From Candidatus Omnitrophota bacterium (lineage in GTDB: Bacteria; Omnitrophota; Gorgyraeia; Gygaellales; Profunditerraquicolaceae), in assembly GCA_028712175.1 (NCBI GenBank), contig JAQTQQ010000004.1, positions 2,180 to 66,179 on the forward strand: DNA of 64,000 nt, read 5' to 3'. Each line of letters starts with the position of its first letter. The first letter of the stretch is position 1. The position numbers and the translations under genes are program-made. Below, piece after piece: positions 1,699 through 57,413 of the stretch. The notes beneath the pieces were generated by a model. It made no database searches and was not told where the DNA came from. It worked only from the letters and a program-made list of their open reading frames with translations.

Positions 1699-2907
1699 TT
1701 AAAGTTTGAGATGATGCCCCATTTTTTCTTTTTTTGTTTTTAAGTACCTGTAATTCTCGCTGTTTGGCTGAATCTCCAAAGGCAGGCGCTCTAAAACCTT
1801 AAGGCCATAGCCCTCTAAGCCAATAATCTTACGCGGATTATTAGTCAATAGCCTTATCCCCTTAACCCCTAAGTCTACAAGAATCTGGGCACCGATACCA
1901 TAATCACGCAAATCAACCTTATGGCCTAATGCCTCGTTAGCTTCTACCGTATCCATACCTTTATCCTGAAGTTTATATGCGCGGATCTTTTCAACTAAAC
2001 CAATTCCGCGCCCTTCTTGTTTCATATAAAGGATAACCCCTTTCTTTTCTGCGGCGATTATCTGCATGGCTTTCTCCAGTTGCCTGCCGCAATCACAACG
2101 CAATGAACCGAAGACATCTCCGGTTAAGCATTCAGAATGTACGCGCACCAATACCGATTCATCTTTCCAGCTGCCCATACACAAAACTATATGCGTCTGA
2201 TCAGAAGTCGTATCCCTATAGATGACTAATTTAAATTCTCCGAATTTTGTCGGCAGCTTAGTTTCAACTACTGCCTCAACTAATTTTTCGCTTCTGCGGC
2301 GGTATTCTATAAGGCTGGCAATACTGCAAATCTTTAATGAGTGTTTCTTTGCAAATTCAAGAAGATTCGCAAGGCGGGCCATACTGCCATCATCATTCAT
2401 AATCTCACAAATTACCCCCGCCGGATAACATCCTGCAAGACGCATTAAATCAAGACTTGCTTCAGTATGTCCTGCCCTAACCAAAACTCCGCCGCGCCGG
2501 CAGCGCAAAGGAAAAATATGCCCTGGGCGCAGGAGGTCTTCTGGTTTAGTATCTTGGCTAATTAAAATTTCAATTGTTCTAGCCCTATCGGCAGCAGAGA
2601 TACCCGTACTTATTCCGCGCGCCGCATCAACTGAAATCATCCATGCAGTCTTAAAAGGATCTTCTTTATGGGGCTGCAGGGTATTTTTAAGCATAGGATC
2701 AAGTTCCAGAAAACGCAAGCGCTCTTCTTCCATAGGAACACAAATAAGCCCGCGTCCAAATTTAGCCATAAAATTTATATCTTCGGGCCTGACGCCTGAA
2801 GCCGCCATAACCAGATCACCTTCATTCTCACGGTCCTCATCGTCAACGACAATTACCATTTTGCCGTTTTTTAAGTCTTCTACAATTTCTGGAATTGTGT
2901 TAAACAT
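1699..2907 (-). CDS. ribBA: Bifunctional 3,4-dihydroxy-2-butanone-4-phosphate synthase / GTP cyclohydrolase II
   Basis: DHBP synthase and GTP cyclohydrolase II motifs are present (CxxGxxxC ... [10 protein letters not shown]). The start was placed at the internal ATG (MFNTIPE), which has a GGAGAG SD. The longer ORF call would run into the riboswitch terminator. Confidence 0.9.
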
Positions 2908-2961
2908 GGCTCTCCTATACCCTCCGGGTGCATCCGCGCAGATCCCTAAAACGCAGGGTAT

Positions 2962-2993
2962 TAAAAAATAAGCCCGAAATAAACTCTTCGGGC
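2962..2993 (-). terminator. Intrinsic terminator hairpin of the FMN riboswitch expression platform
   Basis: On the minus strand the sequence gcccgaagagtttatttcgggc forms a 7-bp GC-rich stem. It is followed by TTATTTTTT, and lies between the aptamer and the ribBA start. Confidence 0.6.
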
Positions 2994-3039
2994 AATTTGC
3001 TATTTTCACCAGGAATCACCGGCGAATCCGCGGCTATTT

Positions 3040-3165
3040 ACAGCGGTAATCTTCTTCCATCTGGACTTTACACCCTAACCAACTTTAAAATGGGTGCCCG
3101 TTTTATTACGGAACCATCGGCCCTGGAATTTCACCAGATCTGTCCGCCATTGAATCAGTGGCGGA
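3040..3165 (-). ncRNA. FMN riboswitch (RFN element) aptamer
   Basis: The minus strand contains GGUGAAAUUCCAGGGCCGAUGGU ... AAAGUCCAGAUGGAAGAAG. This matches the conserved RFN cores (GGUGAAAUUCC; CCGxCGGU; AAAGUCUGGAUGGGAGAAGG) and has P1 pairing AUCUGG/CCAGAU. It lies upstream of ribBA. Confidence 0.75.
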
Positions 3166-3279
3166 CTCGCGGGCTTTTACAACTTAACCATATTTTTGGT
3201 TTATTGTGCTCTACCGCCGGTAAGGATTTACACCTTGCCCTGAAGATTAACTGAAATTATTTTACCAGAGAAACTAAAC

Positions 3280-17933: not shown

Positions 17934-17957
17934 AGTTTAATTCTTAAAAATCGGTTT

Positions 17958-18074
17958 TAGCTATTAGCTCGTAGCTATTAGCTCTTAGAAAAACATTGTT
18001 TACAGCAAAATAAGGTTAAAAGGCTAAACAGAAAACACTTGGTTTCTAGCTCTTAGCTCATAGCTAAGAGCTAA
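17958..18074. repeat. Modular intergenic palindromic repeat, copy A (heptad arm, core1, core2, inverted heptad arm)
   Basis: Left arm TAGCTAT/TAGCTCG/TAGCTAT/TAGCTCT heptads, then core1 aaaaacattgtttacagcaaaataagg, core2 aaggctaaacagaaaacacttggtttc, and a palindromic right arm agctcttagctcatagctaagagct. Copy B at 18265-18430 has a near-identical layout. Confidence 0.7.
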
Positions 18075-18264
18075 ATCCCATCAACAGTACAAACGCTGCT
18101 AATATTGCTAATATTGCAATAATGAATACAATCTTATGCTTCGGGTATCGCAACCTGCCCATGAAACCAACACTACGATTTAAGCTCTCTCCGCAGAAAA
18201 TGCAAAACAACGCCTCATCATCATATATCGGCTGTTTGCAATGGGGACATGTGTATGCGCTCAT
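18064..18264 (-). CDS. Small zinc-ribbon membrane protein (CPHC...CIFC plus C-terminal TM helix)
   Basis: 66 aa with two CxxC pairs and a hydrophobic C-terminus. There is no clear SD. The stop and last codons lie inside repeat arm R1, and the start abuts repeat copy B. Confidence 0.45.
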   Translation of the reverse strand: MSAYTCPHCKQPIYDDEALFCIFCGESLNRSVGFMGRLRYPKHKIVFIIAILAILAAFVLLMGFSS

Positions 18265-18430
18265 ATTAGCTCTTAGCTCTTAGAAAAACATTGTTTACAG
18301 CAAAATAAGGGTCGCTAGACTATAGTCGATGGTCGATAAAATCTGGCCTCCATAAATTCATGCACAAAAGGCTAAGGCAGAAAACACTCGGTTTCTAGCT
18401 TTTAGCTCATAGCTACGAGCTAAGAGCTAA
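18265..18430. repeat. Modular intergenic palindromic repeat, copy B (as copy A, plus an inserted GACTATAGTC palindrome module)
   Basis: core1 is identical to copy A (27/27) and core2 is about 90% identical. The insert is gtcgctagactatagtcgatggtcgataaaatc, carrying the perfect 10-bp palindrome GACTATAGTC. The right arm is agcttttagctcatagctacgagctaagagct. Confidence 0.7.
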
Positions 18431-18442
18431 TTATATTCTATC

Positions 18443-25777: not shown

Positions 25778-26936
25778 GTAAATCCTTATCCCCTCTTCCG
25801 GAAAGACAAACTATAACTACCGCTTTCTTAAAATATTTAGCTGACTTTTTTAAATAAGCAATGGCATGTGCGGATTCTAATGCAGGAATAATTCCTTCAA
25901 CTTGTGATAACAGCCTAAACCCATCCATAGCCTCTTTATCGGTAATTGCCACATAATCAGCCCTTTTTATTTCTTTGTAATAAGCATGCTCCGGTCCCAC
26001 CCCCGGATAATCAAGGCCCGCGGCAACTGAATGGGCATTTTTGATCTGGCCGAATTTATCCTCCAAAATCTTTGATTTAGAACCATGCAGTACCCCGACC
26101 GAACCTGCCTCAAGGCTTGCCGAATGTTTCCCGCTTGATAACCCCAAGCCTGCGGCTTCAACTCCGATCATCTTTACCGTTGAATCATTAAAAAAAGGAT
26201 GGAATAAACCTATGGCATTGCTTCCGCCTCCGACACAAGCCACTAAATAATCAGGAAGACGGTTTTCCTTATTTAAAATCTGCCCCCTTGCCTCGCGGCC
26301 AATCACAGATTGAAAATTACGCACCATCTCAGGATAAGGATGCGGCCCGGCCACCGTTCCGATAACATAATAAGTGCTGCGCACGTTAGTAACCCAATCA
26401 CGCAAAGCTTCGGTCATCGCATCTTTTAGAGTCTGCGTTCCGCTTTTTACGCTGATGACTCTTGCGCCCAATAACCTCATGCGCATAACATTCAAGGCCT
26501 GGCGGCCAATATCTTCCTGGCCCATATATATGTCACATTTTAAACCGAATAAAGCTGCAACAGTTGCAGTAGCAACTCCATGCTGGCCTGCCCCAGTTTC
26601 CGCAATTAACCTTTTTTTGCCCATTTTAACCGCCAAAAGCACCTGACCTAAGGTATTATTGATTTTATGAGAACCGGTATGCAGCAAGTCTTCCCGTTTT
26701 AAATAAATCTTCATTATCCCTAAATGGCGGCTTAAGTTTTTAGCCAGATATAATGCCGTAGGCCTGCCTGCGTATTCACGCAACAAAAAGGAAAACTCTT
26801 TAGCAAACTCCTTGTTCTCTTTTGCCTCTAAATATTCTTTTTCCAATTCATCAAGGGCATAAATTAACGTCTCGGGGACGAACCTGCCGCCAAATTCCCC
26901 AAAATGCCCTGTTCTATCCGGCACCCTGTTATTCAT
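25764..26936 (-). CDS. trpB: Tryptophan synthase beta chain
   Basis: 390 aa PLP enzyme with the HTGSHKINN motif. Confidence 0.95.
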
Positions 26937-27547
26937 CTAGAAACCTCTTTCATGAATTCCTTTATTTTTTTATGATTTTTTTTACCGGGCTCATCTTCCA
27001 AACTGCTTGATACATCTACCCAGCCGGGTTTTAATAATTTGACTGCCCTTGCTACATTAGAAGAAGTTAAACCTCCCGATAAAAACATAATAGGAGTTAT
27101 TTTACCTAGATACGCAAGCATTTTCCAGTTAAATCTTTTCCCCGTACCGCCTAATTGATTATTCGAGAAGCTATCAAATAAATAGGCAAAGGTATTATAC
27201 TTGGATACCCCGTGGAGATCTTCTTTTCTGCTTATTCTAAAAGCCTTAATTACCTTATATCCTTTAAATTTGCGGCAATATGCTGGGGACTCCTGGCCGT
27301 GAAACTGCAGCATATCTAAATTACACTGGCTGGCAATTTTTTTTACTCTCGAAACGGGTTCATCAGCAAAAACTCCTACCCGCTTGATTTTCTTCGGTAA
27401 AATCAGGGATATCTTTCTTGCCGCGCTCGGGCTTATATAGCGCGGGCTTTTTTTATAAAAAACAAATCCTAATGCATCTGCGCCTTCAAAATAACATACA
27501 AGGGCATCTTCTAAATTAGTTACTCCGCATATTTTAACTTTTATCAT
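26933..27547 (-). CDS. trpF: Phosphoribosylanthranilate isomerase
   Basis: 204 aa beginning [10 protein letters not shown]. Confidence 0.85.
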
Positions 27548-27550
27548 CTT

Positions 27551-27680
27551 TGGCCAAAGGTCGAAAGACTAAAGTCTAAAAATTCATCTCTAGCCTAGGC
27601 TTTGTGCGCCCTTTTAGGCTTGCAACTTTAGTCTTTAAATTATACATGGTTTTCTACGATTCACGAACTAAGAACTAATT
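27551..27680. repeat. Modular intergenic palindromic repeat, copy D (long imperfect hairpin plus CGAACTA heptads abutting the trpC stop)
   Basis: Contains ggtcgaaagactaaagtc. The 11-bp inverted repeat aagactaaagt (27565-27575) / actttagtctt (27625-27635) flanks the ctagcctagg palindrome. The heptads cgattca/cgaacta/agaacta end exactly at the trpC stop codon. Confidence 0.65.
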
Positions 27681-28467
27681 ACCACCCCATAACCTGGCTT
27701 ACTTTACTTTTTATATCGTCAGACTGCATAAAAACCGTCCCGATCAAAACCGCGCTTGCCCCAAGAATCTTTAAGAATAAAACATCCTGAGAATTTTTAA
27801 TCCCGCTTTCTACAACCACTATTTTATCTTTAGGGATTAATGTAAATAATTTTTCGGTAGTCTTGAAATCAACCTCCAGTGTTTTTAAATTACGGTTATT
27901 TATCCCGATCACGGGGATTTTCAGGCTAAGTGCCTTCTTTAATTCTTTTTCATCGTGCACCTCAACCAGATAATCAAGGCCCAAACTATCGGCAATCTGC
28001 ATAAATTCCGCTAACTTTTCTTTGGTTAGGAGGCCGGCAATTAATAAAATTGCATCAGCGCCTAAGTAACGCGACTCATAAACCTGGTAGCTCTCTAAAA
28101 TAAAATCTTTCCTTAATACCGGTCCGCTAAATACATTTTTTACCTCACTTAGATAAGCGGGATTACCTGCGAAGAAATCTTCTTCGGTTAGCACAGAAAC
28201 TGCCTGAGCGCCAGCTTCCTGATAGGCCATGGCGACTTCTCTTAAATTTAAATTCTGGCGGATCACTCCCGCTGAAGGCGAAGACTGCTTAATTTCAGCA
28301 ATCAGAGCGATTTGACGCGGCTTACCGATTATTTCCCTAAACGGGCGCGTTGGCGGCAGATCTTTTAATTTCGCTTTCAGGCCATCCTCGTTTAGCTGCT
28401 GTTTGGCTAAAATAATTCTTTCCTTCTTTTTTGCGACAATCTTCTTTAAAATATCGGTTTTTACCAT
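27679..28467 (-). CDS. trpC: Indole-3-glycerol phosphate synthase
   Basis: 262 aa IGPS. Confidence 0.9.
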   Translation of the reverse strand: MVKTDILKKIVAKKKERIILAKQQLNEDGLKAKLKDLPPTRPFREIIGKPRQIALIAEIKQSSPSAGVIRQNLNLREVAMAYQEAGAQAVSVLTEEDFFAGNPAYLSEVKNVFSGPVLRKDFILESYQVYESRYLGADAILLIAGLLTKEKLAEFMQIADSLGLDYLVEVHDEKELKKALSLKIPVIGINNRNLKTLEVDFKTTEKLFTLIPKDKIVVVESGIKNSQDVLFLKILGASAVLIGTVFMQSDDIKSKVSQVMGW

Positions 28468-28473
28468 TTTTTC

Positions 28474-29478
28474 TTAAGAATACTCCTTTAATAACTGAAG
28501 TTTTTTCAATGCCTGGGCTGAATCAATTGATTCTTTTGCAAGGATTAATCCTTCGCTGATTGTTTTAGCTTTATCTGCTGCATAAATTGCACCGGCAGCG
28601 TTGAATAAAACGATATCCCGTCTCGGGCCGCTTTTTCCTGCGAGCACCTCTTGAGCTATATTGACATTGTCGGCTACCGAACCTCCTAATAAATCCTCCG
28701 GTGAGGATGTCTTTAAACCAAACTCCTGCGGAGAAATATCATATTCTTTCAATACCCCATTATTCATCTCAACAACATATGTTTTGCCGGTAGTCGTTAT
28801 CTCATCAAGGCCATCTGAACCATGAACTACTAAAATATGTTTTGAACCTAAATTATATAATACTTGCGCAAGAGGCAAAGCCCATTCCTTAGAATACACG
28901 CCGATTAATTGATTAGTTGCCCGCGCAGGATTAATCAAGGGGCCCAAAATATTAAATATGGTCTTCTGGGCAATTTGCTTCCGGGCGGGCAGCACAAAAC
29001 GCATTGCCGGATGCAGGTTTGGAGCGAACAAAAAAGCAATCCCTATCTCCTGAAGGCATTTCTTAATTTTCTCCCTATCCATATTAATATTAACGCCCAA
29101 AGCCTCTAAGATATCAGCGCTGCCGCATTTACTCGATACTGAACGGTTACCGTGTTTGGCCACCGTAACCCCGGCACCGCTTGCTACAAAAGCGGTAATT
29201 GTCGAAATATTAAAGGAACCTTTCTTGTCCCCGCCGGTTCCGCAGGTATCTAAAATGTTTGGCCGGTCGACGACAATCGGCTCAACGTATTTAAGCATTA
29301 CGTTCACGGCCGCAGTTAATTCGGCGACAGTCTGCCCCTTATCGTTTAAAGAAGTTAAAAAAGCAACAATATCCGCGGTATCAACATGCCCGCTTAAAAT
29401 CTCCCGCATTACCTGCTGCATTTGAAGATCAGTTAAATCTTTTTTATTAGCCAACTGGGCGATTAGGTCCTTGATCAT
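28474..29478 (-). CDS. trpD: Anthranilate phosphoribosyltransferase
   Basis: 334 aa with the GTGGD motif. Confidence 0.9.
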   Translation of the reverse strand: MIKDLIAQLANKKDLTDLQMQQVMREILSGHVDTADIVAFLTSLNDKGQTVAELTAAVNVMLKYVEPIVVDRPNILDTCGTGGDKKGSFNISTITAFVASGAGVTVAKHGNRSVSSKCGSADILEALGVNINMDREKIKKCLQEIGIAFLFAPNLHPAMRFVLPARKQIAQKTIFNILGPLINPARATNQLIGVYSKEWALPLAQVLYNLGSKHILVVHGSDGLDEITTTGKTYVVEMNNGVLKEYDISPQEFGLKTSSPEDLLGGSVADNVNIAQEVLAGKSGPRRDIVLFNAAGAIYAADKAKTISEGLILAKESIDSAQALKKLQLLKEYS

Positions 29479-30041
29479 TTTATTTGAATGAAATTATCTA
29501 AAATCTGTTTCCCGCTTTTAGTAAGTATTGATTCAGGATGAAACTGCACTCCCCAAATAGGATACTCTTTATGTTTTAACCCCATAATTTCATTTTCATC
29601 AGTGTAGGCGGTTATCTCAAGAGATGAAGGCAGGCTTTTTTTGTCCACTAATAACGAGTGGTAACGCGTAGCCAGAAATGGACTCGGAATATTTTTAAAG
29701 ATGTCTTTCTTATTATGATAAATCTTGGAGGTTTTTCCATGCATTAGCTTTTTTGCCTGAATGATTTTGGCTCCGAAATAATAACCTATTGCCTGATGCC
29801 CCAAACAAACCCCTAAAATAGGGATTTTCCCGAGAAAGCTGCCTATGACTTCACATGAGATACCGGCGTCTTCCGGCCTACCCGGGCCCGGAGATATAAC
29901 AATTTTTTCCGGATCAAGTTTTTTAATATCCCCGACAGTCAACGCATCATTGCGGTAGACCAGAATCTTCTCCCCTAATTCTCCCAAATACTGCACAAGG
30001 TTATAGGTGAATGAGTCGTAGTTATCAATCATTAATATCAT
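29475..30041 (-). CDS. trpG: Anthranilate synthase component II / glutamine amidotransferase (TrpG/PabA type)
   Basis: 188 aa class I GATase with catalytic Cys (GVCLGHQ) and His. Confidence 0.85.
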   Translation of the reverse strand: MILMIDNYDSFTYNLVQYLGELGEKILVYRNDALTVGDIKKLDPEKIVISPGPGRPEDAGISCEVIGSFLGKIPILGVCLGHQAIGYYFGAKIIQAKKLMHGKTSKIYHNKKDIFKNIPSPFLATRYHSLLVDKKSLPSSLEITAYTDENEIMGLKHKEYPIWGVQFHPESILTKSGKQILDNFIQIK

Positions 30042-30060
30042 TTAAATCTCCCCAAAGAAT

Positions 30061-30150
30061 GGCCGATAGACTATGGACCATAGTCGATAAAACCAGTTCC
30101 TAACTCTTGACTCGCAGCCCGTAGGAAAACCTACGAACTAAGAACTTATT
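30061..30150. repeat. Modular intergenic palindromic repeat, copy C (GACTATGG-a-CCATAGTC module, hairpin, and CGAACTA heptads abutting the murA stop)
   Basis: ggccgatagactatggaccatagtcgataaaacc is a homolog of the copy B insert. It is followed by the cgtaggaaaacctacg hairpin and the heptads acgaact/aagaact, which end at the murA stop codon. Confidence 0.65.
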
Positions 30151-31408
30151 CTTTTTCTCTCCACACCTTCGCGCCTAAGTTAATTAATTTATCCTCGATA
30201 AACTCATAACCGCGCTCTAAATGATAAATCCTTGAAATAGAAGTTTTGCCGCGTGCGGCTAGGCCGGCTAAAACTAAACCTGCTGAGGCACGCAAATCGC
30301 TTGCCATAACCGGAGCACCGCTTAAATTCCTCACCCCTTCTACTATTGCATGCGGCCCCTCTCTTTGAATATGGGCCCCCATACGGTTAAGCTCGGACAC
30401 ATGCATAAACCTGTCGGGATAGATTTTCTCGGTGATCACACTTATGCCTTCGGCAACCGACATCAGGCTCATTATCTGCGCCTGCATATCCGTAGGGAAT
30501 CCCGGATAGGGAAGCGTAGTAATATTAATCGCCTTTAGCCTTTTATTACCCTTAACACGCAAAGATCCCTCGCTGCGCTTAATGTGGGCGCCGGCTTCAT
30601 CTAATTTGTCAAGTAAAGCACCCAAATGTTGATATTGGATATTTTTAATTAAGACATCCCCCGCGGTGATTAGCGCGGCTAAAATCAATGTGCCTGCTTC
30701 AATGCGGTCAGAAATTATCGAATGCATTGCGCCGTGCAAATGCTTCACGCCTTCGATTTCAATTACCGGAGTGCCATGACCTTTAATCTTAGCGCCCATC
30801 TTAATCAAAAATTCCGCTAAATCCACCACTTCCGGCTCACAAGCCGCAGACTCTATTACGGTCTTGCCGTTAGCTAAAACCGCAGCCATCATGACATTAT
30901 CAGTAGCTAAGACCGAAGAACCATAAACCCCGCCTAAATAGATATAGGCGCCGCGCAATTTATTAGCTTTAGCCACCACATAACCCGAATCAATGCTAAT
31001 ATCGGCACCCAAGGCCTTGATGCCTTTTAAATGCAGGTCAACGGGGCGCACTCCGATGATGCATCCTCCTGGGAGAGAAACTTTTGCTTTTTTTAATTTA
31101 CCTAAAAGCGGCCCCAAAACACAGAATGAAGCGCGCATAGTAGAAACCAGTTTGTATTCGGCAATGTAATTTTCCGCTTTGCCCGAACAAATACTAACCC
31201 TGCCTTTGTCAAACTCGGCAATTTTACCCAATGAGCGCAAAATTTTAAGCATACTATTAGTATCCCGCAGGCATGGCACGCCCTTAATAACGCATGGCTC
31301 ATTAGTAAGCAGGGTTGCTGCCAGTATCGGTAACACTGCATTCTTTGCCCCGGAGGCCGTAACCTCTCCCTGTAATCTTGCCCCGCCTTCAATAATTAAT
31401 TTATCCAT
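30146..31408 (-). CDS. murA: UDP-N-acetylglucosamine 1-carboxyvinyltransferase
   Basis: 420 aa EPT fold with a conserved active-site Cys region. Confidence 0.95.
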   Translation of the reverse strand: MDKLIIEGGARLQGEVTASGAKNAVLPILAATLLTNEPCVIKGVPCLRDTNSMLKILRSLGKIAEFDKGRVSICSGKAENYIAEYKLVSTMRASFCVLGPLLGKLKKAKVSLPGGCIIGVRPVDLHLKGIKALGADISIDSGYVVAKANKLRGAYIYLGGVYGSSVLATDNVMMAAVLANGKTVIESAACEPEVVDLAEFLIKMGAKIKGHGTPVIEIEGVKHLHGAMHSIISDRIEAGTLILAALITAGDVLIKNIQYQHLGALLDKLDEAGAHIKRSEGSLRVKGNKRLKAINITTLPYPGFPTDMQAQIMSLMSVAEGISVITEKIYPDRFMHVSELNRMGAHIQREGPHAIVEGVRNLSGAPVMASDLRASAGLVLAGLAARGKTSISRIYHLERGYEFIEDKLINLGAKVWREKE

Positions 31409-31409
31409 A

Positions 31410-32198
31410 TCAAGAAATCCTTTTTTTACCTGTTACGACCCGCTCAATATTATTATAATCATTAATTACCCTTATATCATGAAAATTCTCCTTTAAAAGC
31501 ATGGAGCTAACCGGGCCAGACTGCATAATCCCCACCTCAAAGGCTAAAAGCCCGTTATCATGCAAATAAACCGGAGCCTCAATAACTATTCGGCGGTAAA
31601 AATCCAATCCATCGATTCCCGCTTCTAAGGCCTGAACCGGTTCAAAGGATATTTCTTTGGCTAAAGCACTAAGTTGATTAACTGGAATATAAGGCGGATT
31701 ACTGATGATTAAATCAAATTTCTCTTCCGAACCCTTTAAAACACTGAAAATATCCGTATTCAAAAATTTAATATCCACATTATTAAAGCGGGCATTTTCT
31801 CTGGCTAGCTGCAAAGCTTGTTTCGATATGTCAGTCGCCCATACGATTGATTGCGGTAATGCTTTAGCTATTGCCACAGCAATACAACCTGAACCTGTTC
31901 CCAGGTCAAGGACCTTCGGGCAAGCAGTATTCATTGTTTTTAATTCCTCTATCGCTGCTTGAACCAGGATTTCCGTTTCCGCACGGGGGATCAACGCGCG
32001 CCTGTCAACCTTAAACTCATAACCCATAAAATTACTCGAGCCCAGGATATATTGCAGCGGCTCACCGGCAATCCTGCGCTTTAATATTTTAGAGATTAAA
32101 ACAGACCGATATTTGCCTAAAGTGGAATCTTTATTTATATACAGAGACAATCTGTCGCAATTTAAAACATGAGTCAATACTAATTCGGCCTCATTCAT
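31410..32198 (-). CDS. prmC: Release factor glutamine N5-methyltransferase PrmC (HemK)
   Basis: Has an NPPY motif and an SAM-binding LDLGTGSG motif, and sits downstream of prfA. Confidence 0.88.
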
Positions 32199-33258
32199 TC
32201 ATTTGGCCCCTCTTATCTGATTCTGCCTTTAACAGGGCCTCGAAAAGCTCCTCCATCTGCCCCTCAAGAATTGCCTCTAACTGATGCGAAGTAAAATTAA
32301 TCCTATGGTCAGTAACCCTGCGGTCAGGAAAATTATAAGTACGGATTTTTTCGCTCCTGTCGCCGGTACCGATCTGGATCTTTCTGGCGCTGGATTGTTT
32401 TCTTACCTCTGCCTCGATTTTTGCTTCTAAAATACGCGCGCGCAAAACCCTCATTGCCTTGGCCCTATTCTTGATCTGCGAACGTTCATCCTGGCAGGCA
32501 ACCACTGTTCCGGTTGGTATATGCGTTATCCTGACCGCTGAATCGGTTTTCTGCATATGCTGCCCTCCGGGCCCGCTTGAACGGTAAGTATCAATCCTCA
32601 AATCCTTCGGTTCAATAATCAAATCGACCTCTTCCGGCTCTACCAATACCGCAACCGTCGCCGTAGAAGTATGGATTCTTCCCTGCGCTTCAGTTGCCGG
32701 AACCCTTTGCACGCGGTGTACTCCGCTTTCAAATTTAAGCAAGCGGAAGGAATCTTTGCCTTTTACGCCAAAAACAATTTCTTTAATACCCCCGGCTTCA
32801 TTGACGCTGCTTGACATAGGTTCAATCACCCAACCCTTTGCCGCTGCAAATTTTGAATACATCCGGTAAAGATCGGCCGCGAATAGGCCTGCCTCATCTC
32901 CACCCGTACCTTGCCTGATTTCGATAATACAATTACGGCCGGCATCCTTATCCTCGCCAGCCATTATTTTTCTCAACTTTAGTTCAATCTCTGTCTTTTT
33001 TGCTTCCAGATCCTTAAATTCCTCTTCTGCTAACTCGAGGAACTCCTTGTCATCTTTTTCGCCTGGCGCTATCTCAAGATCCTTTGCCTGCTTAACCAAG
33101 TTCTTATACTCAGCCAACAGCATAACGGTCTCTTTAATATCAGAAAGCTCCTTAGCCAGCTTATTATACTGATCCCTATCGGCAATCTGTTCATGGCTGG
33201 CCAAAAGATGCTCAAGCTCTGCATAACGCGCAACTAGTTTCTCTAATTGTTCAAACAT
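32191..33258 (-). CDS. prfA: Peptide chain release factor 1
   Basis: 355 aa with GGQ and PxT-type motifs. Confidence 0.95.
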
Positions 33259-33525: not shown

Positions 33526-34785
33526 TTATTTCTGGTTCATACTGTTTAAGAATTCTTCGTTATTCTTGGTTTTACTTAATTTTTCGATCAATAGCTCCAT
33601 CGCCTCTACGTTATTTAATTCGTTCAATACTTTCCTTAAGATCCATGTCTTCTGCAGCACATCCGGTTTAACTAAAAGTTCTTCGTGGCGGGTATTAGAA
33701 CGCTTAATATCTATTGCCGGATATATTCTGCGTTGGAAGAGATTGCGGTCAAGCTGAGTTTCCATATTTCCCGTACCCTTAAACTCTTCGAAGATAACTT
33801 CATCCATGCGGCTTCCGGTATCGACTAACGCCGTTGCGATGATTGTCAGGCTTCCGCCTTCATCTACGGCGCGCGCCGCGCCAAAAAACCTTTTTGGTTT
33901 CTGGAGGGCGTTAGAATCAATGCCGCCCGAAAGTACTTTGCCGCTATGGGGCACGACCGAGTTATAGGCGCGGGCAAGGCGGGTTATACTATCCAAAAGA
34001 ACAACTACATCGCGTTTATGCTCAACCAGGCGCTTTGCTTTTTCTAAAACTATCTCAGCAACCTGAACATGGCGTTCCGGCGGCTCATCAAAAGTAGAGG
34101 AGATTACCTCTCCCTTAACATTGCGCTGCATATCCGTAACTTCCTCCGGGCGCTCATCAATAAGCAAAACGATAAGAATTACATCCGGATTATTGGTAGT
34201 AATGGCGTTAGCAATCTTCTGCAATAGAACTGTTTTTCCACTATAGGGCTGAGCAACAATTAAACCGCGCTGCCCCCGGCCGATAGGAGTTAACAAGCTC
34301 ATAATGCGCATAGATATCTCATCGGGCTTTGTTTCCATATTAAACGCCGCGCGGGGATAAACCGGAGTAAGGTTATCAAAAAGGACTTTTTCTTTTACCT
34401 CCTCGGGATTTTCAAAGTTCACCGCCTCAACCTTAAGCAAAGCAAAATATTTTTCACCCTCTTTGGGCGGACGGATCTGCCCGCTCACTGTATCTCCCGT
34501 ACGCAATTCAAACTTTCTAATCTGCGAGGGTGAAATATAAATATCATCAGGGCAAGGTAAATAATTATAATTCGGGCTTCTTAGAAAACCAAAACCTTCG
34601 GGGAGTATTTCAAGCACACCTTCACCGAACATCAGCCCTTCTTTTTCTGCCTGAGCCTGAAGTATTTTAAAAATCAGGTCCTGTTTCTTTAAGCCGCTTG
34701 TACCGTTTGCATTTAACTCTCTGGCAAGCTTGTTTAATTCGCTGATCTTCATGTCTTTAAGATTCTTAATATCTAACTTTTCCAC
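33526..34785 (-). CDS. rho: Transcription termination factor Rho
   Basis: 419 aa with an N-terminal OB/RNA-binding domain and a RecA-like ATPase domain containing a Walker A motif. Confidence 0.95.
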
Positions 34786-43591: not shown

Positions 43592-43605
43592 GTTTTCTTA
43601 GATTA

Positions 43606-43690
43606 AGGGTTGATAACCTATGGGCGATGGCCGAGAAAACCGAAGGTTTTATGAACTTTGCCTATAGTCTTTCGACCAATAAATTATTCC
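43606..43690. repeat. Modular intergenic palindromic repeat, copy E (inverted orientation)
   Basis: The reverse complement ggtcgaaagactatagg matches the copy B/C/D modules. There is also an aaaacc-gaa-ggtttt hairpin at 43636-43650. Confidence 0.55.
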
Positions 43691-43777
43691 AGAATTCCGG
43701 TTTCTATAGCAAACTTTGCGCTAACATCTAACAACCTAAATAACTATAAACAATCTTATTGACTCGAAACGTAAAGC

Positions 43778-56150: not shown

Positions 56151-57413
56151 TTATAATAGTTTCTTTGCTTCGGCAATGATATTGGCTGCCTTCTTTTCTC
56201 CAATACCCTTAATCTTTATAAGCCCTTCGACTTTGGCTTTAATTATATCATCAATGCACTTAATCCCCTCTGCATTTAAACTTTCAATAATCTTTGCGCC
56301 GACCCCTGAAAGAAGTTCTAAAGAAAGCTCTTCCTTTTTCGCTGCTTTTTTGCTTTCTTTTTTAACAGCCTTTTTTGTTTTCTTTGCCTTAGGTTTTTCT
56401 TCGGCCTCGCCTTCTTTTCCTTCGCCAAGAGGGGATTTTTCTTCTGCCTTTCCGCCTAAAGCCTCAGCGGCAATCATACTCTTAGTCCGAATATCCAATT
56501 CCCAGCCAACAAGCCTAGAAGCCAAGCGTACATTCTGGCCGTGCTTCCCTATACTTAAAGAAAGCTGATCATCATCAACAACCACCTCAGCCTTATTTTT
56601 CTCCCTGTCTAGTTTTATCTCTGAAATCTTAGCCGGGGAAAGAGCGGCTTTTATATATTCACGCAAATCATCATTGAAACGCACAATATCGATTTTCTCC
56701 CCCTGCAATTCATTGACAATATTTCTCACACGATTTCCCCGCATACCAACGCAGGCGCCCACAGCGTCTACTTTTTCATTCTTTGAATAAACTGAAATCT
56801 TGGTGCGCTCGCCGGCTTGACGAGTTATGCCTTTAATCTCGACTATCCCTTCATAAATCTCAGGGACCTCTAGTTCAAATAGCTCTTTAACCAGATTAGG
56901 ATGCGCGCGCGATAAAATAATCTGCGGCCCCTTAGTATCCTTCTTTACCTCCACGACATATGCACGGATACGCTGCCCCTGCTTAAATTCTTCCTTCGGG
57001 GACTGTTCACGCTTAAGTAAAATTCCTTCTGCTTTACCCAGCAAGTCAACGATGACATTCCCTTTTTCGAAACGGTAAACCGTACCGCTGACAATTTCTC
57101 CCACGCGGCTTTGGAACTCTCCAAAGACCACATCCTTTTCCGCCTCGCGCATCTTCTGGATAATCACCTGTCTGGCGGTAGATGCGGCAATACGGCCAAA
57201 ATCTATGTTGGTAAACGGCTCATTGTTACGAAAAGCCCGAATTTCTCCGGTTACACGGTCAATCTTAACGCTAAATTCCTCATCAGGCTTTAAATCTATC
57301 ACTCTTTTGGCAGCGCTAAGCATGGCGCTTTCTACCGCCTCAAGCATAATTTCTTTTTTAATTCCTTTTTCACGTTCAATCTGCTCAATAATCGCTAATA
57401 ATTCCTGACTCAT
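56151..57413 (-). CDS. nusA: Transcription termination/antitermination factor NusA (with a K/E-rich linker before the C-terminal HhH)
   Basis: 420 aa with NusA N-terminal, S1 and KH domains and a C-terminal HhH. Confidence 0.92.
   Translation of the reverse strand: MSQELLAIIEQIEREKGIKKEIMLEAVESAMLSAAKRVIDLKPDEEFSVKIDRVTGEIRAFRNNEPFTNIDFGRIAASTARQVIIQKMREAEKDVVFGEFQSRVGEIVSGTVYRFEKGNVIVDLLGKAEGILLKREQSPKEEFKQGQRIRAYVVEVKKDTKGPQIILSRAHPNLVKELFELEVPEIYEGIVEIKGITRQAGERTKISVYSKNEKVDAVGACVGMRGNRVRNIVNELQGEKIDIVRFNDDLREYIKAALSPAKISEIKLDREKNKAEVVVDDDQLSLSIGKHGQNVRLASRLVGWELDIRTKSMIAAEALGGKAEEKSPLGEGKEGEAEEKPKAKKTKKAVKKESKKAAKKEELSLELLSGVGAKIIESLNAEGIKCIDDIIKAKVEGLIKIKGIGEKKAANIIAEAKKLL

What the first reader, a model, noticed from the sequence alone, without database searches (positions are those of the whole stretch)
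27551..27680. Repeat copy D inserted inside the trp operon, with a long imperfect hairpin and heptads that end exactly at the trpC stop codon
The 131-bp trpC-trpF spacer is an imperfect palindrome. It has aagactaaagt / actttagtctt arms and a central ctagcctagg, sharing the ggtcgaaagactaNagtc module with copies B, C and E. At its 3' end the 7-nt periodic array cgattca/cgaacta/agaacta runs straight into the trpC TAA. The same CGAACTA-AGAACT-TA junction recurs at the murA stop in copy C. This suggests either a stop-codon-adjacent insertion preference or a conserved post-stop RNA structure.
Basis: seen in the sequence. Interest (0 to 1): 0.6.

Follow-up and report, generated by a model that had tools for sequence, protein, structure and literature searches.

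The report
Seven-base-repeat filler inside trp operon
The 131-base gap between trpC and trpF in this Omnitrophota genome is a recent insertion built from degenerate 7-base repeats, and it touches the stop codon because it fills a gap between genes that overlap in relatives; it belongs to a known kind of bacterial intergenic repeat.

Summary
The spacer is 131 bp (27548-27678). It holds a perfect 12-nt inverted repeat, two short palindromes and a heptad run next to the trpC TAA. It shares 14 identical bases with the spacer at the murA stop.

Three things change the picture:
- The 7-nt periodicity runs through the whole spacer (lag-7 identity 0.44, z +4.7) and through four other spacers in the window.
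- In the closest relatives trpC/trpF and murA/trpG overlap, so both spacers are derived insertions. One relative (L194) carries homologous inserts at both junctions; its nearer relative L192 has neither.
- Heptad-periodic spacers, usually an array plus its inverted copy, make up about 11% of 183 intergenic regions in 1 Mb of related genomes. AGTTCnn arrays also occur in metagenome contigs of 31-64% GC.

The spacer also carries a roughly 35-nt dispersed module with four copies in this window.

Its predicted RNA fold is no better than shuffled sequence. It matches no Rfam family and has no terminator-like site. The flush contact with the stop codon follows from geometry and from TAG-bearing units that close all three frames within 13 nt.

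Verdict: a new member of the known intergenic heptanucleotide-repeat class. Function is unproven and interest is moderate to low.

The parts
27548..27678 (-). It is heptad-periodic throughout. On the gene strand it reads TAA tt AGTTCtt AGTTCgt GAATCgt AGAAAac CATGTat AATTTaa AGACTaa AGTTGca AGCCTaa ... TAGACTT TAGTCTT TCGACCT TTGGCCA AAG ATG.
   Evidence: Lag-7 identity 0.44 (z +4.7), lag-14 z +3.8. Absent from L190, L191 and L192, where the genes overlap. Identical in three other assemblies of the same population.
27657..27678 (-). It carries TAG in two phases.
   Evidence: Stop codons close all three frames at offsets 0, 4 and 11 from the TAA. Homologous to the start of the L194 trpC-trpF spacer.
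27679..27681 (-). trpC stop codon TAA. This is the ancestral stop: the TrpC C-terminus ..VMGW* is the same as in relatives.
27558..27586 (+). Copy D of dispersed module M (GGTCGAAAGACT-AAAGTCTAAAAATTC). It is the weakest of the four copies and lacks exactly 7 nt relative to B, C and E. It lies antisense to the genes, and its GGTCG end is 10 nt from the trpF ATG.
   Evidence: nhmmer E 0.019 for D, against 2e-7 to 3e-7 for B, C and E. Alignment; pattern search.
27564..27575 (.). Left arm of the perfect 12-nt inverted repeat (aaagactaaagt), inside module M.
   Evidence: An inverted repeat of 12 nt or more arose in 1 of 2000 shuffles.
27625..27636 (.). Right arm of the 12-nt inverted repeat (actttagtcttt). 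It reads as a partial second M copy in inverted orientation.
   Evidence: The + strand fold pairs the two arms; the mRNA-strand MFE does not.
27592..27601 (.). 10-nt perfect palindrome AGCCTAGGCT between the arms.
27548..27559 (.). 12-nt perfect palindrome CTTTGGCCAAAG directly upstream of the trpF ATG. No Shine-Dalgarno-like GGAG lies here, unlike upstream of trpG and the L28-like gene.
   Evidence: The missing SD is read directly from the sequence.
27639..27646 (-). TGTATAAT on the gene strand: a consensus -10 hexamer with an adjacent TG but no credible -35. Possibly an internal promoter; untested.
   Evidence: Read. The promoter scan did not call it.
30042..30145 (-). murA-trpG spacer (copy C). 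It has the heptad-phased stop TAAGTTC TTAGTTC GTAGG, the hairpin CGTAGG-TTTT-CCTACG, and module M at 30060-30095 (+).
   Evidence: (lag-7 z +3.4). The ancestral state is an ATGA overlap.
17934..18440 (.). Copies A and B: TTAGCTC-type heptad arrays and their inverted copies. They flank a 66-codon ORF (18064-18264, - strand). B (18269-18440) differs from A mainly by a 54-nt indel that contains module M (18309-18344).
   Evidence: (z +4.5 and +3.7).
43592..43777 (-). folD-metF spacer (copy E). Module M (43644-43678) lies in the opposite orientation relative to the genes. Heptad periodicity is weaker.
   Evidence: (z +2.9).

Best explanation
What it is. The spacer is a lineage-specific insertion made of degenerate heptanucleotide tandem repeats. 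It belongs to the same kind of sequence as the intergenic heptamer repeats of cyanobacteria, Xanthomonas and Beggiatoaceae. It has three parts:
- a TTAGTTC-type run next to trpC;
- an inverted pair, one full and one partial, of a roughly 35-nt dispersed module M, which is itself about five RGWCSAT heptads;
- a short palindrome next to the trpF start.

How it arose (shown for the ancestral state, inferred for the process). It sits where trpC and trpF overlapped and were presumably translationally coupled in the ancestor. I infer that such fillers arise and change by insertion or duplication, followed by slipped-strand gain and loss of 7-nt units, with template switching creating the inverted copies.

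Why it touches the stop codon. The ancestral gap was zero, so any insert has to start at the stop. The units also carry TAG, so every reading frame closes within 13 nt.

What it does (inferred). In the mRNA it is an untranslated spacer between cistrons with only local, unremarkable hairpins. Its most likely effect is to uncouple trpF translation from trpC. It is not a conserved regulatory structure.
For: Derived insertion. The junctions overlap in most relatives and in the nearest ones. The TrpC (..VMGW*) and MurA (..REKE*) C-termini are unchanged by the inserts.

Heptad nature.
- Lag-7 z is +2.9 to +4.7 in all five spacers.
- TRF on 1.02 Mb finds 45 period-7 arrays, plus 16 of period 14, in the 8.3% called non-coding. 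Every other period from 5 to 13 gives 2-11.
- 21 of 183 intergenic regions have lag-7 z of 3 or more; one of these is an artefact of a run of Ns. Other lags give 2-6, and matched coding controls give 2 of 183.

Independent inserts in other lineages. At the same junctions they are heptad arrays plus inverted arrays: TAGTAAC, AGCTCAT, GGACGTA, AATAACC, AGTCTAT.

Change in whole units. Copy D of M lacks exactly 7 nt. By eye, the M-like sequence in L194 lacks 14 nt.

No sign of a dedicated RNA. MFE z is -1.0. There is no Rfam match and no terminator-like site.

Stop closure in all three frames.

Precedent in the literature.
- TAACTGA repeats give stops in all three frames and so necessarily sit at ORF ends (PMC4679880).
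- Inverted heptamer arrays occur in Xanthomonas (PMC4692102).
Against: - No copy-number difference appears among four assemblies of this population. The spacer is identical in all, so there is no direct sign of ongoing slippage.
- Homologous inserts at both junctions in the window genome and L194, but in neither L192 nor L004, need either four exact gains or four exact losses. Plain slippage does not explain that.
- Two perfect 12-nt inverted repeats and a perfect -10 hexamer could reflect function.
- One compensatory pair in the copy-C hairpin between the window genome and L194 hints at selection on that small stem, but only two sequences are compared.
- The genome-wide census of the source genome could not be done. 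It is not among the GTDB representatives searched.
Confidence: 0.6

Rival explanations
1. It is a small non-autonomous mobile element, like a REP/BIME or a MITE, that is inserted and precisely excised by an enzyme encoded elsewhere, with a preference for stop/start overlaps of tightly packed operons.
For: - Module M has four copies in 64 kb, all intergenic and in both orientations. No convincing copy exists in 1.76 Mb from other genomes.
- Spacer B equals spacer A plus a 54-nt segment that contains M.
- D holds an inverted M pair, as BIMEs do.
- The window genome and L194 share inserts at both junctions, while L192 (closer to L194: 88.5% against 85.4%) has intact overlaps.
- L030 has a related AGTCTAT palindrome at murA-trpG.
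- Short direct repeats flank the inserts: TAA, AAT, TGATA and GTAA (read by eye).
Against: - There are no fixed termini and no uniform length. The inverted repeat is internal, not terminal.
- The copies share only about 35 nt at 65-80% identity.
- The flanking direct repeats are also what function demands when an overlap is split, so they are not independent evidence.
- One genome carries several unrelated heptad units, for example AAGTCAA and AATAACC in L055. That fits a generating process better than one element.
- No transposase was looked for or seen.
- Arrays in metagenomes lie in every kind of intergenic context.
Confidence: 0.22
2. It is a functional cis-regulatory insert for the distal trp genes: an internal promoter or operator (TGTATAAT plus palindromes), or an RNA hairpin that sets trpC versus trpFBA expression through mRNA stability, processing or translational control.
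For: - There is a consensus -10 hexamer with an adjacent TG.
- There are three perfect palindromes or inverted repeats.
- trpF has no Shine-Dalgarno sequence and a palindrome abuts its ATG.
- Heptad hairpins of other lineages at murA-trpG are very stable (z -4 to -10).
- The spacer is kept unchanged in four assemblies.
Against: - There is no -35 element and the scan calls no promoter. No terminator-like site is found.
- The fold energy is ordinary.
- There is no Rfam match.
- The nearest relatives lack the spacer and manage with overlapping genes.
- The only homologue (L194) shares just the first ~40 nt.
Confidence: 0.12
3. The heptads are binding sites, one per 7 nt, for a single-strand nucleic-acid-binding protein (Csp, S1 or CsrA type) that acts on the mRNA. 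This was proposed for TAACTGA repeats.
For: - A 5-nt core with 2 variable positions (AGTTCnn) is kept across contigs of 31-64% GC.
- CspB is reported to bind heptamer direct repeats, one protein per heptamer (PMC4679880).
Against: - Unit sequences differ widely between and within genomes.
- Arrays occur in both orientations relative to genes.
- Most are paired with an inverted copy, which would hide single strands.
- No experiment bears on it.
Confidence: 0.06

Closest known systems
Intergenic heptanucleotide simple-sequence repeats: the Calothrix/Nostoc tandem heptanucleotides (called STRR; that name is from my own memory), the heptamer 'long simple sequence repeats' of Mrazek 2007, Xanthomonas GGGAATC and Nostoc GGGGAYT repeats (PMC4692102)
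   Same: - Tandem 7-nt units with a conserved core and variable positions.
- Confined to intergenic DNA, including gaps inside operons (pecE-pecF in Nostoc).
- Length and sequence differ between close relatives at the same junction.
- Some occur as inverted pairs able to form stem-loops.
   Different: - The units here are AT-rich (TTAGTTC, TTAGCTC, AGACTAT), not G-rich, so no quadruplex is expected.
- Arrays are short and degenerate: 2-5 recognisable units.
- The usual form in this clade is an array plus its inverted copy filling a junction that was formerly an overlap.
- The phylum (Omnitrophota) has no report that I could find.
TAACTGA heptamer direct repeats of marine Beggiatoaceae, Cyanobacteria and Bacteroidetes (MacGregor 2015, PMC4679880)
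   Same: - Intergenic heptamers carrying stop triplets, so that stops fall in all three frames and the arrays sit flush with, or overlap, the upstream stop codon.
- Patchy distribution across distant phyla with no known vehicle.
   Different: - The unit sequence is different.
- TAACTGA arrays are mostly direct repeats just upstream of start codons and rarely inverted. Here inverted pairs dominate, and the array abuts the stop rather than the start.
REP/BIME elements of enterobacteria and pseudomonads (from my own knowledge)
   Same: - A roughly 35-nt imperfectly palindromic module dispersed in intergenic and intercistronic DNA.
- Both orientations occur, and inverted pairs are found within operons.
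- Known REPs act as mRNA-stabilising hairpins.
   Different: - No RAYT transposase has been identified.
- The module is heptad-phased.
- Only four copies have been seen.
- The hairpin in copy D is not unusually stable.

Membership tests
Intergenic heptanucleotide tandem repeats (STRR / heptamer LSSR class) | Head-to-tail units of 7 nt | tested here: met
   Lag-7 and lag-14 autocorrelation in D (z +4.7 and +3.8; 0 of 1000 shuffles) and in spacers A, B, C and E. TRF finds period-7 arrays in A and B. In D only 2-3 units are near-identical; the rest are degenerate.
Intergenic heptanucleotide tandem repeats (STRR / heptamer LSSR class) | Restricted to, or strongly enriched in, non-coding DNA, at many loci | tested here: met
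   45 period-7 arrays lie in the 8.3% non-coding fraction of 1.02 Mb, against 2-11 for other periods. 21 of 183 intergenic regions have z of 3 or more, against 2 of 183 coding controls. The whole source genome could not be searched.
Intergenic heptanucleotide tandem repeats (STRR / heptamer LSSR class) | Unit-number variation between strains or relatives (slippage) | tested here: inconclusive
   Module M in D lacks exactly 7 nt, and the L194 M-like copy lacks 14 nt by eye. Four assemblies of the same population show no length difference.
REP/BIME | Short imperfect palindrome, dispersed in intergenic DNA, in both orientations, often as inverted pairs | tested here: met
   M has four copies, three on the + strand and one on the - strand, all intergenic. 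D holds one full and one partial inverted copy.
REP/BIME | Cognate RAYT (Y1 transposase) gene in the genome | not tested
   Only 64 kb of the genome is available. 26 of about 57 ORFs were scanned against Pfam and none is a transposase.
MITE | Terminal inverted repeats at the ends of the inserted unit, and copies of uniform length | tested here: not met
   The 12-nt inverted repeat is internal (27564-27636), not at the spacer ends. Spacers sharing M are 104-186 bp long and align only over about 35 nt.
MITE | Target-site duplication | tested here: inconclusive
   TAA (D), AAT (C), and TGATA and GTAA (L194) occur at both ends of the inserts when compared with the empty sites of L191 and L192. Splitting an overlap requires such duplication anyway.
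Intrinsic terminator / attenuator | GC-rich stem followed by a U tract; for an attenuator, a leader peptide with Trp codons | tested here: not met
   There is no terminator-like site in 26800-30400 apart from one inside trpD. The only ORF in the spacer (23 codons) has no Trp codon.
Any curated RNA family (Rfam 15) | Covariance-model match | tested here: not met
   At the gathering threshold the window yields only an FMN riboswitch. At E up to 10, only chance-level hits lie in 27400-27800. Nothing matched on the arrays in 20 metagenome loci.
TAACTGA repeat family (PMC4679880) | Unit TAACTGA as direct repeats, mostly just upstream of start codons | tested here: not met
   The units are TTAGTTC, TTAGCTC and AGACTAT. 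The array abuts the stop, and inverted copies are common.

The most novel reading that the evidence does not exclude
Heptad-phased hairpin elements (an array of NNAGYTC-type units, a loop, then the inverted array) may be a distinct, actively generated class, rather than passive slippage products. Some 7-nt-register mechanism would insert and excise them exactly at stop/start overlaps of packed operons. That would account for three observations:
- homologous inserts at the same two junctions in the window genome and L194, while the intervening lineages L192 and L004 lack them;
- the recurrence of such inserts at murA-trpG in several separate lineages;
- the presence of AGTTCnn arrays in contigs from 31 to 64% GC, including a MAG labelled Acidobacteria (L069).
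Probability: 0.15. Interest if true: 0.7.

Novelty: new member of a known kind. Interest (0 to 1): 0.35.

Why it matters
On its own the trpC-trpF spacer is an ordinary, probably neutral, piece of repeat-derived filler.

The wider pattern has some value:
- In this little-studied phylum, about one intergenic region in ten is heptad-periodic.
- These fillers repeatedly split gene pairs that overlap, and are presumably translationally coupled, in relatives.
- One unit family (AGTTCnn) is spread across very different genomes.

Nobody has explained why 7 nt is the favoured unit of bacterial intergenic repeats, or why such arrays so often come with their own inverted copy. The trp junctions here offer matched filled and empty sites in close relatives. 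That makes the origin question testable: insertion, duplication or slippage. It also lets the cost of losing translational coupling be measured.

For genome annotation, the practical point is that these spacers should not be mistaken for riboswitches or attenuators.

Tried and rejected
- Rfam at gathering and permissive thresholds: nothing relevant in the spacer or on the arrays.
- Promoter and terminator scan: no call in the spacer.
- tRNA/tmRNA scan: none in the window.
- RNA folding of both strands of D: ordinary energies. This rules out 'one long imperfect hairpin' as a significant structure.
- A sliding lag-7 scan also flagged 236-330 and 418-487. These lie in a PHP-domain-like ORF that runs off the window end, so I treat them as chance.
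- The source genome is not among the GTDB representatives.
Many hits are chance matches: 79 of 125 carry only the two units of the pattern itself.
- Viral contigs: the 14-mer lies in arrays in only 7 of 120 hits. Hits to the M pattern are chance matches with profile E of 0.018 or worse, so there is no sign of a phage vehicle.
- Recombination as the reason the window genome and L194 share inserts: rejected. trpG, trpD and trpC, which lie between the two inserts, are no more similar between the window genome and L194 than between the window genome and L192.
- Literature search for heptad repeats in Omnitrophota or Acidobacteria: nothing found.
- P0011 contigs had no DNA on file.

Full report
**Setting.** The window is 41% GC and almost every gene lies on the - strand. 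TrpC homologues name the organism as a Candidatus Omnitrophota MAG.

On the gene strand the local order is:
- prfA (32191-33258)
- prmC (31410-32198)
- murA (30146-31408)
- a 104-bp spacer
- trpG (29475-30041)
- trpD (28474-29478)
- trpC (27679-28467)
- the 131-bp spacer in question
- trpF (26933-27547)
- trpB, trpA and an M16 peptidase.

- The spacer is 27548-27678.
- It has a perfect 12-nt inverted repeat (27564-27575 and 27625-27636).
- It has a 10-nt palindrome, AGCCTAGGCT (27592-27601).
- It has a further 12-nt palindrome, CTTTGGCCAAAG (27548-27559), touching the trpF ATG.
- A perfect inverted repeat of 12 nt or more arose in 1 of 2000 dinucleotide shuffles.
- On the gene strand the sequence after the stop reads TAA TTAGTTC TTAGTTC GTGAATC.
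- The string AGTTCTTAGTTCGT (14 nt) also lies against the murA TAA.
- The module GGTCGAAAGACTANAGTC recurs at 18310 and at 43660 on the - strand, with 0.05 matches expected by chance.

The 7-nt period is not confined to the last 21 bases.
- Lag-7 identity over all 131 nt is 0.44 (z +4.7; 0 of 1000 shuffles), with a lag-14 echo (z +3.8).
- Spacers A, B, C and E behave the same way, with z from +2.9 to +4.5.
- Read in one register, the first nine units after the stop are AGTTCtt, AGTTCgt, GAATCgt, AGAAAac, CATGTat, AATTTaa, AGACTaa, AGTTGca and AGCCTaa.
- The 'module' itself reads as heptads: GTCGAAA GACTAAA GTCTAAA.

**The spacer is not one significant hairpin.** The mRNA-strand MFE (-27.5 kcal/mol) has z -1.0 and does not use the long arms. 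The + strand gives z -1.5. Rfam finds nothing there. The consensus scan finds no promoter or terminator in it.

**It is an insertion.** Sixty-six loci from GTDB genomes carry trpC relatives, and the Omnitrophota among them (about 60 of the 66) keep the same gene order.
- murA and trpG overlap by ATGA in 38 of 55 loci.
- trpC and trpF overlap by 7 nt (GTGGTAA and variants) in 28 of 65 loci.
- Every MurA ends ..REKE* and every TrpC ends ..MGW*, whether or not an insert follows.
- Among the nearest relatives found by protein look-up, L190, L191 (TrpC 84%) and L192 (82%) have both overlaps intact.
- So both spacers in the window are derived.

**One relative shares them.** L194 has a 124-bp murA-trpG insert and a 51-bp trpC-trpF insert.
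- Its murA-trpG insert aligns with copy C. Both share the hairpin TTAGTTCRTAGG-TTTT-CCTAYG, with one compensatory G-C to A-U change.
- Its trpC-trpF insert aligns with the first ~40 nt of D (TAA TTTAGTT TTTAGCC ... CGTAGAA). It lacks the part of D that carries the inverted module pair.
- Over seven concatenated proteins the window genome is the outgroup to L194, L192 and L004. Identities to the window are 85.4, 84.5 and 84.0%, and L194-L192 is 88.5% (neighbour-joining tree without support values).
- The inserts were therefore either gained twice at each junction or lost exactly, restoring the overlap, at least twice at each junction.
- The genes between the two inserts are no more similar between the window genome and L194 than between the window genome and L192. 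Recombination does not explain the pattern.

**A clade-wide class.** Other lineages have unrelated inserts at the same junctions, and these share one design: a heptad array, a loop, then the inverted array.
- Units seen are TAGTAAC/GTTACTA (L040, L043, L053), AGCTCAT/ATGAGCT (L051), GGACGTA (L045), AATAACC/GGTTATT (L055) and AGTCTAT (L030).
- Short direct arrays also occur at trpC-trpF: CTCGTAA three times in L043, GTTAAGG four times in L047, and ATCAAAA in L038 and L040.
- Those hairpins are strongly stable (z -4 to -10), unlike D at -0.8, C at -2.7 and A at -3.0.
- In 1.02 Mb (the window plus the GTDB loci), the 8.3% called non-coding holds 45 period-7 and 16 period-14 TRF arrays. Every other period from 5 to 13 gives 2-11.
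- 21 of 183 intergenic regions of 40-400 nt have lag-7 z of 3 or more. One of these is an artefact of a run of Ns. Other lags give 2-6, and length-matched coding controls give 2 of 183.

**Beyond the phylum.** I scanned JGI metagenomes for the 14-mer AGTTCTTAGTTCGT.
- 46 of 125 hits sit in arrays of three or more AGTTCnn units, and 32 in arrays of four or more.
- The contigs carrying arrays of four or more units range from 31 to 64% GC.
- 14 of those 32 are followed within 150 nt by two or more GAACT, the inverted motif. For a palindrome the downstream position is a geometric necessity.
- In viral contigs only 7 of 120 hits are in arrays.
- L069, a MAG labelled Acidobacteria, has AGCTCTT and AGTTCTT arrays with an inverted partner.
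- These arrays lie beside gene starts, beside gene ends, in divergent spacers and, in ten cases, inside called ORFs. There is no general tie to stop codons.

**The dispersed module.** Aligning B, C, D and E gives a roughly 35-nt module M, GGYCGnwAGACTATrGnc..AwrGTysATAAAAyc.
- A profile built from it finds the four window copies. B, C and E score E of 2e-7 to 3e-7, and D scores 0.019.
- Only one marginal hit (L030) appears in a further 1.76 Mb. The profile was built from these same four copies, so their scores are partly circular. The informative result is the absence elsewhere.
- D's copy lacks exactly one heptad.
- Spacer B equals spacer A plus a 54-nt segment containing M.
- In B, C and D, M lies antisense to the genes, with its GGTCG end 10-46 nt from the next start codon. 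In E it is flipped.
- The right arm of D's 12-nt inverted repeat reads as a partial second M in inverted orientation.

**Why the heptads meet the stop.**
- The ancestral gap was negative, so any insert that keeps both genes must begin at the upstream stop.
- Because 7 is not a multiple of 3, a unit carrying TAG presents it in all three frames over three units. After the trpC TAA the other two frames close at offsets 4 and 11.
- In copy C the ancestral TGA, part of the ATGA overlap, is replaced by a TAA that sits in heptad phase (TAAGTTC, then TTAGTTC).
- Arms that lack stop triplets would extend the upstream protein, and no extension is seen in any of the 12 spacers of 53-169 nt at murA-trpG.
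- MacGregor made the same argument for TAACTGA repeats (PMC4679880).

**Comparison with what is known.**
- Heptanucleotide repeats were reported as the most abundant class of long simple repeats in most prokaryotic genomes, with polymerase slippage offered as the reason. This is Mrazek 2007, as summarised in PMC4679880 and PMC4692102.
- Specific families are described in Calothrix, Nostoc (GGGGAYT, including one between pecE and pecF), Xanthomonas (GGGAATC, some as inverted pairs) and Beggiatoaceae (TAACTGA).
- I found no report for Omnitrophota or Acidobacteria.
- The present case fits that class by period, location and variability. It differs in unit sequence, in its degeneracy, and in the usual array-plus-inverted-array form that fills former overlaps.

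**Mechanism.**
- Shown: the heptad composition, the derived status, the exact boundaries, stop closure in three frames, and the lack of a significant or conserved fold.
- Inferred: origin by insertion or duplication followed by unit slippage and template switching; loss of trpC-trpF translational coupling; and weak, SD-less initiation at trpF.
- Open: whether M and the heptad hairpins are moved by an enzyme, and whether TGTATAAT (27639-27646, - strand) acts as a promoter.

Noticed in passing
window 3045-3251 (-): FMN riboswitch (RF00050, 90.7 bits) upstream of a ribBA-type gene (1699-3009; DHBP_synthase plus GTP_cyclohydro2 domains). It is the only Rfam match in the window.
   Followed up: partly
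window 18064-18264 (-): A 66-codon ORF with a CxxC...CxxC zinc-ribbon-like start and a hydrophobic tail, and no Pfam match. It is flanked on both sides by duplicated spacer segments (44 nt at 98% and 46 nt at 93% identity). Its TAG stop lies inside a TTAGCTC heptad.
   Followed up: partly
L008, L011, L016, L019, L022, L023, L026, L031 and others, between trpF and trpB: In roughly twenty loci (spacers of about 300-390 bp) a small gene of up to about 124 codons sits between trpF and trpB. It encodes a zinc-ribbon plus transmembrane protein (MKKCPFC..CGEFL..); some copies look truncated. The window genome, L190-L192 and L194 lack it, and there trpF and trpB overlap or abut.
   Followed up: partly
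window 29475-31408 and related loci: The trp cluster has trpG, D, C, F, B and A but no trpE. trpG follows murA directly, overlapping it in most relatives. The ten further ORFs of the window that I scanned (nine large ones and the 66-codon ORF) gave no chorismate-binding hit.
   Followed up: partly
L016 10790-10858, L022 3786-3879, L026 10790-10896, L031 10790-10849: A different GC-rich repeat family (TAG GnGCTYGGGGTCCC..GCCACT..) fills the trpC-trpF junction in several relatives. L004 has a hairpin ATTCTGAGCCCCGAAGGGGCGAAGAAT there instead. The junction is a hotspot for several unrelated small elements.
   Followed up: no
L007 10790-11366; L027 between murA and trpG (859 bp): Larger inserts at the same two junctions, apparently carrying an extra open reading frame (read by eye from the printed sequence).
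   Followed up: no
L016 7098-7212 (prmC-murA spacer): About nine units of TTTAGGG/TTTAGGA, the same unit as the plant telomere repeat, paired with an upstream inverted AAACTCG/AAACCTT array. I take the resemblance to be coincidental.
   Followed up: no
junction statistics over L004-L069: No spacer longer than 14 nt occurs at trpG-trpD in any of 55 loci. By contrast murA-trpG has spacers of 53 nt or more in 12 of 55 loci, and trpC-trpF has spacers of 19 nt or more in 26 of 65. Tolerance of, or targeting by, inserts differs sharply between junctions of the same operon.
   Followed up: no
L069 13597-13629 and 14761-14847: A MAG labelled Acidobacteria (TrpC 41% identical) carries AGCTCTT and AGTTCTT heptad arrays with an inverted partner. 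These are the same unit types as in the window.
   Followed up: partly
window 33526-34785 and 56151-57413: rho and nusA are present in the window. This matters if untranslated intercistronic spacers expose the transcript to Rho.
   Followed up: no
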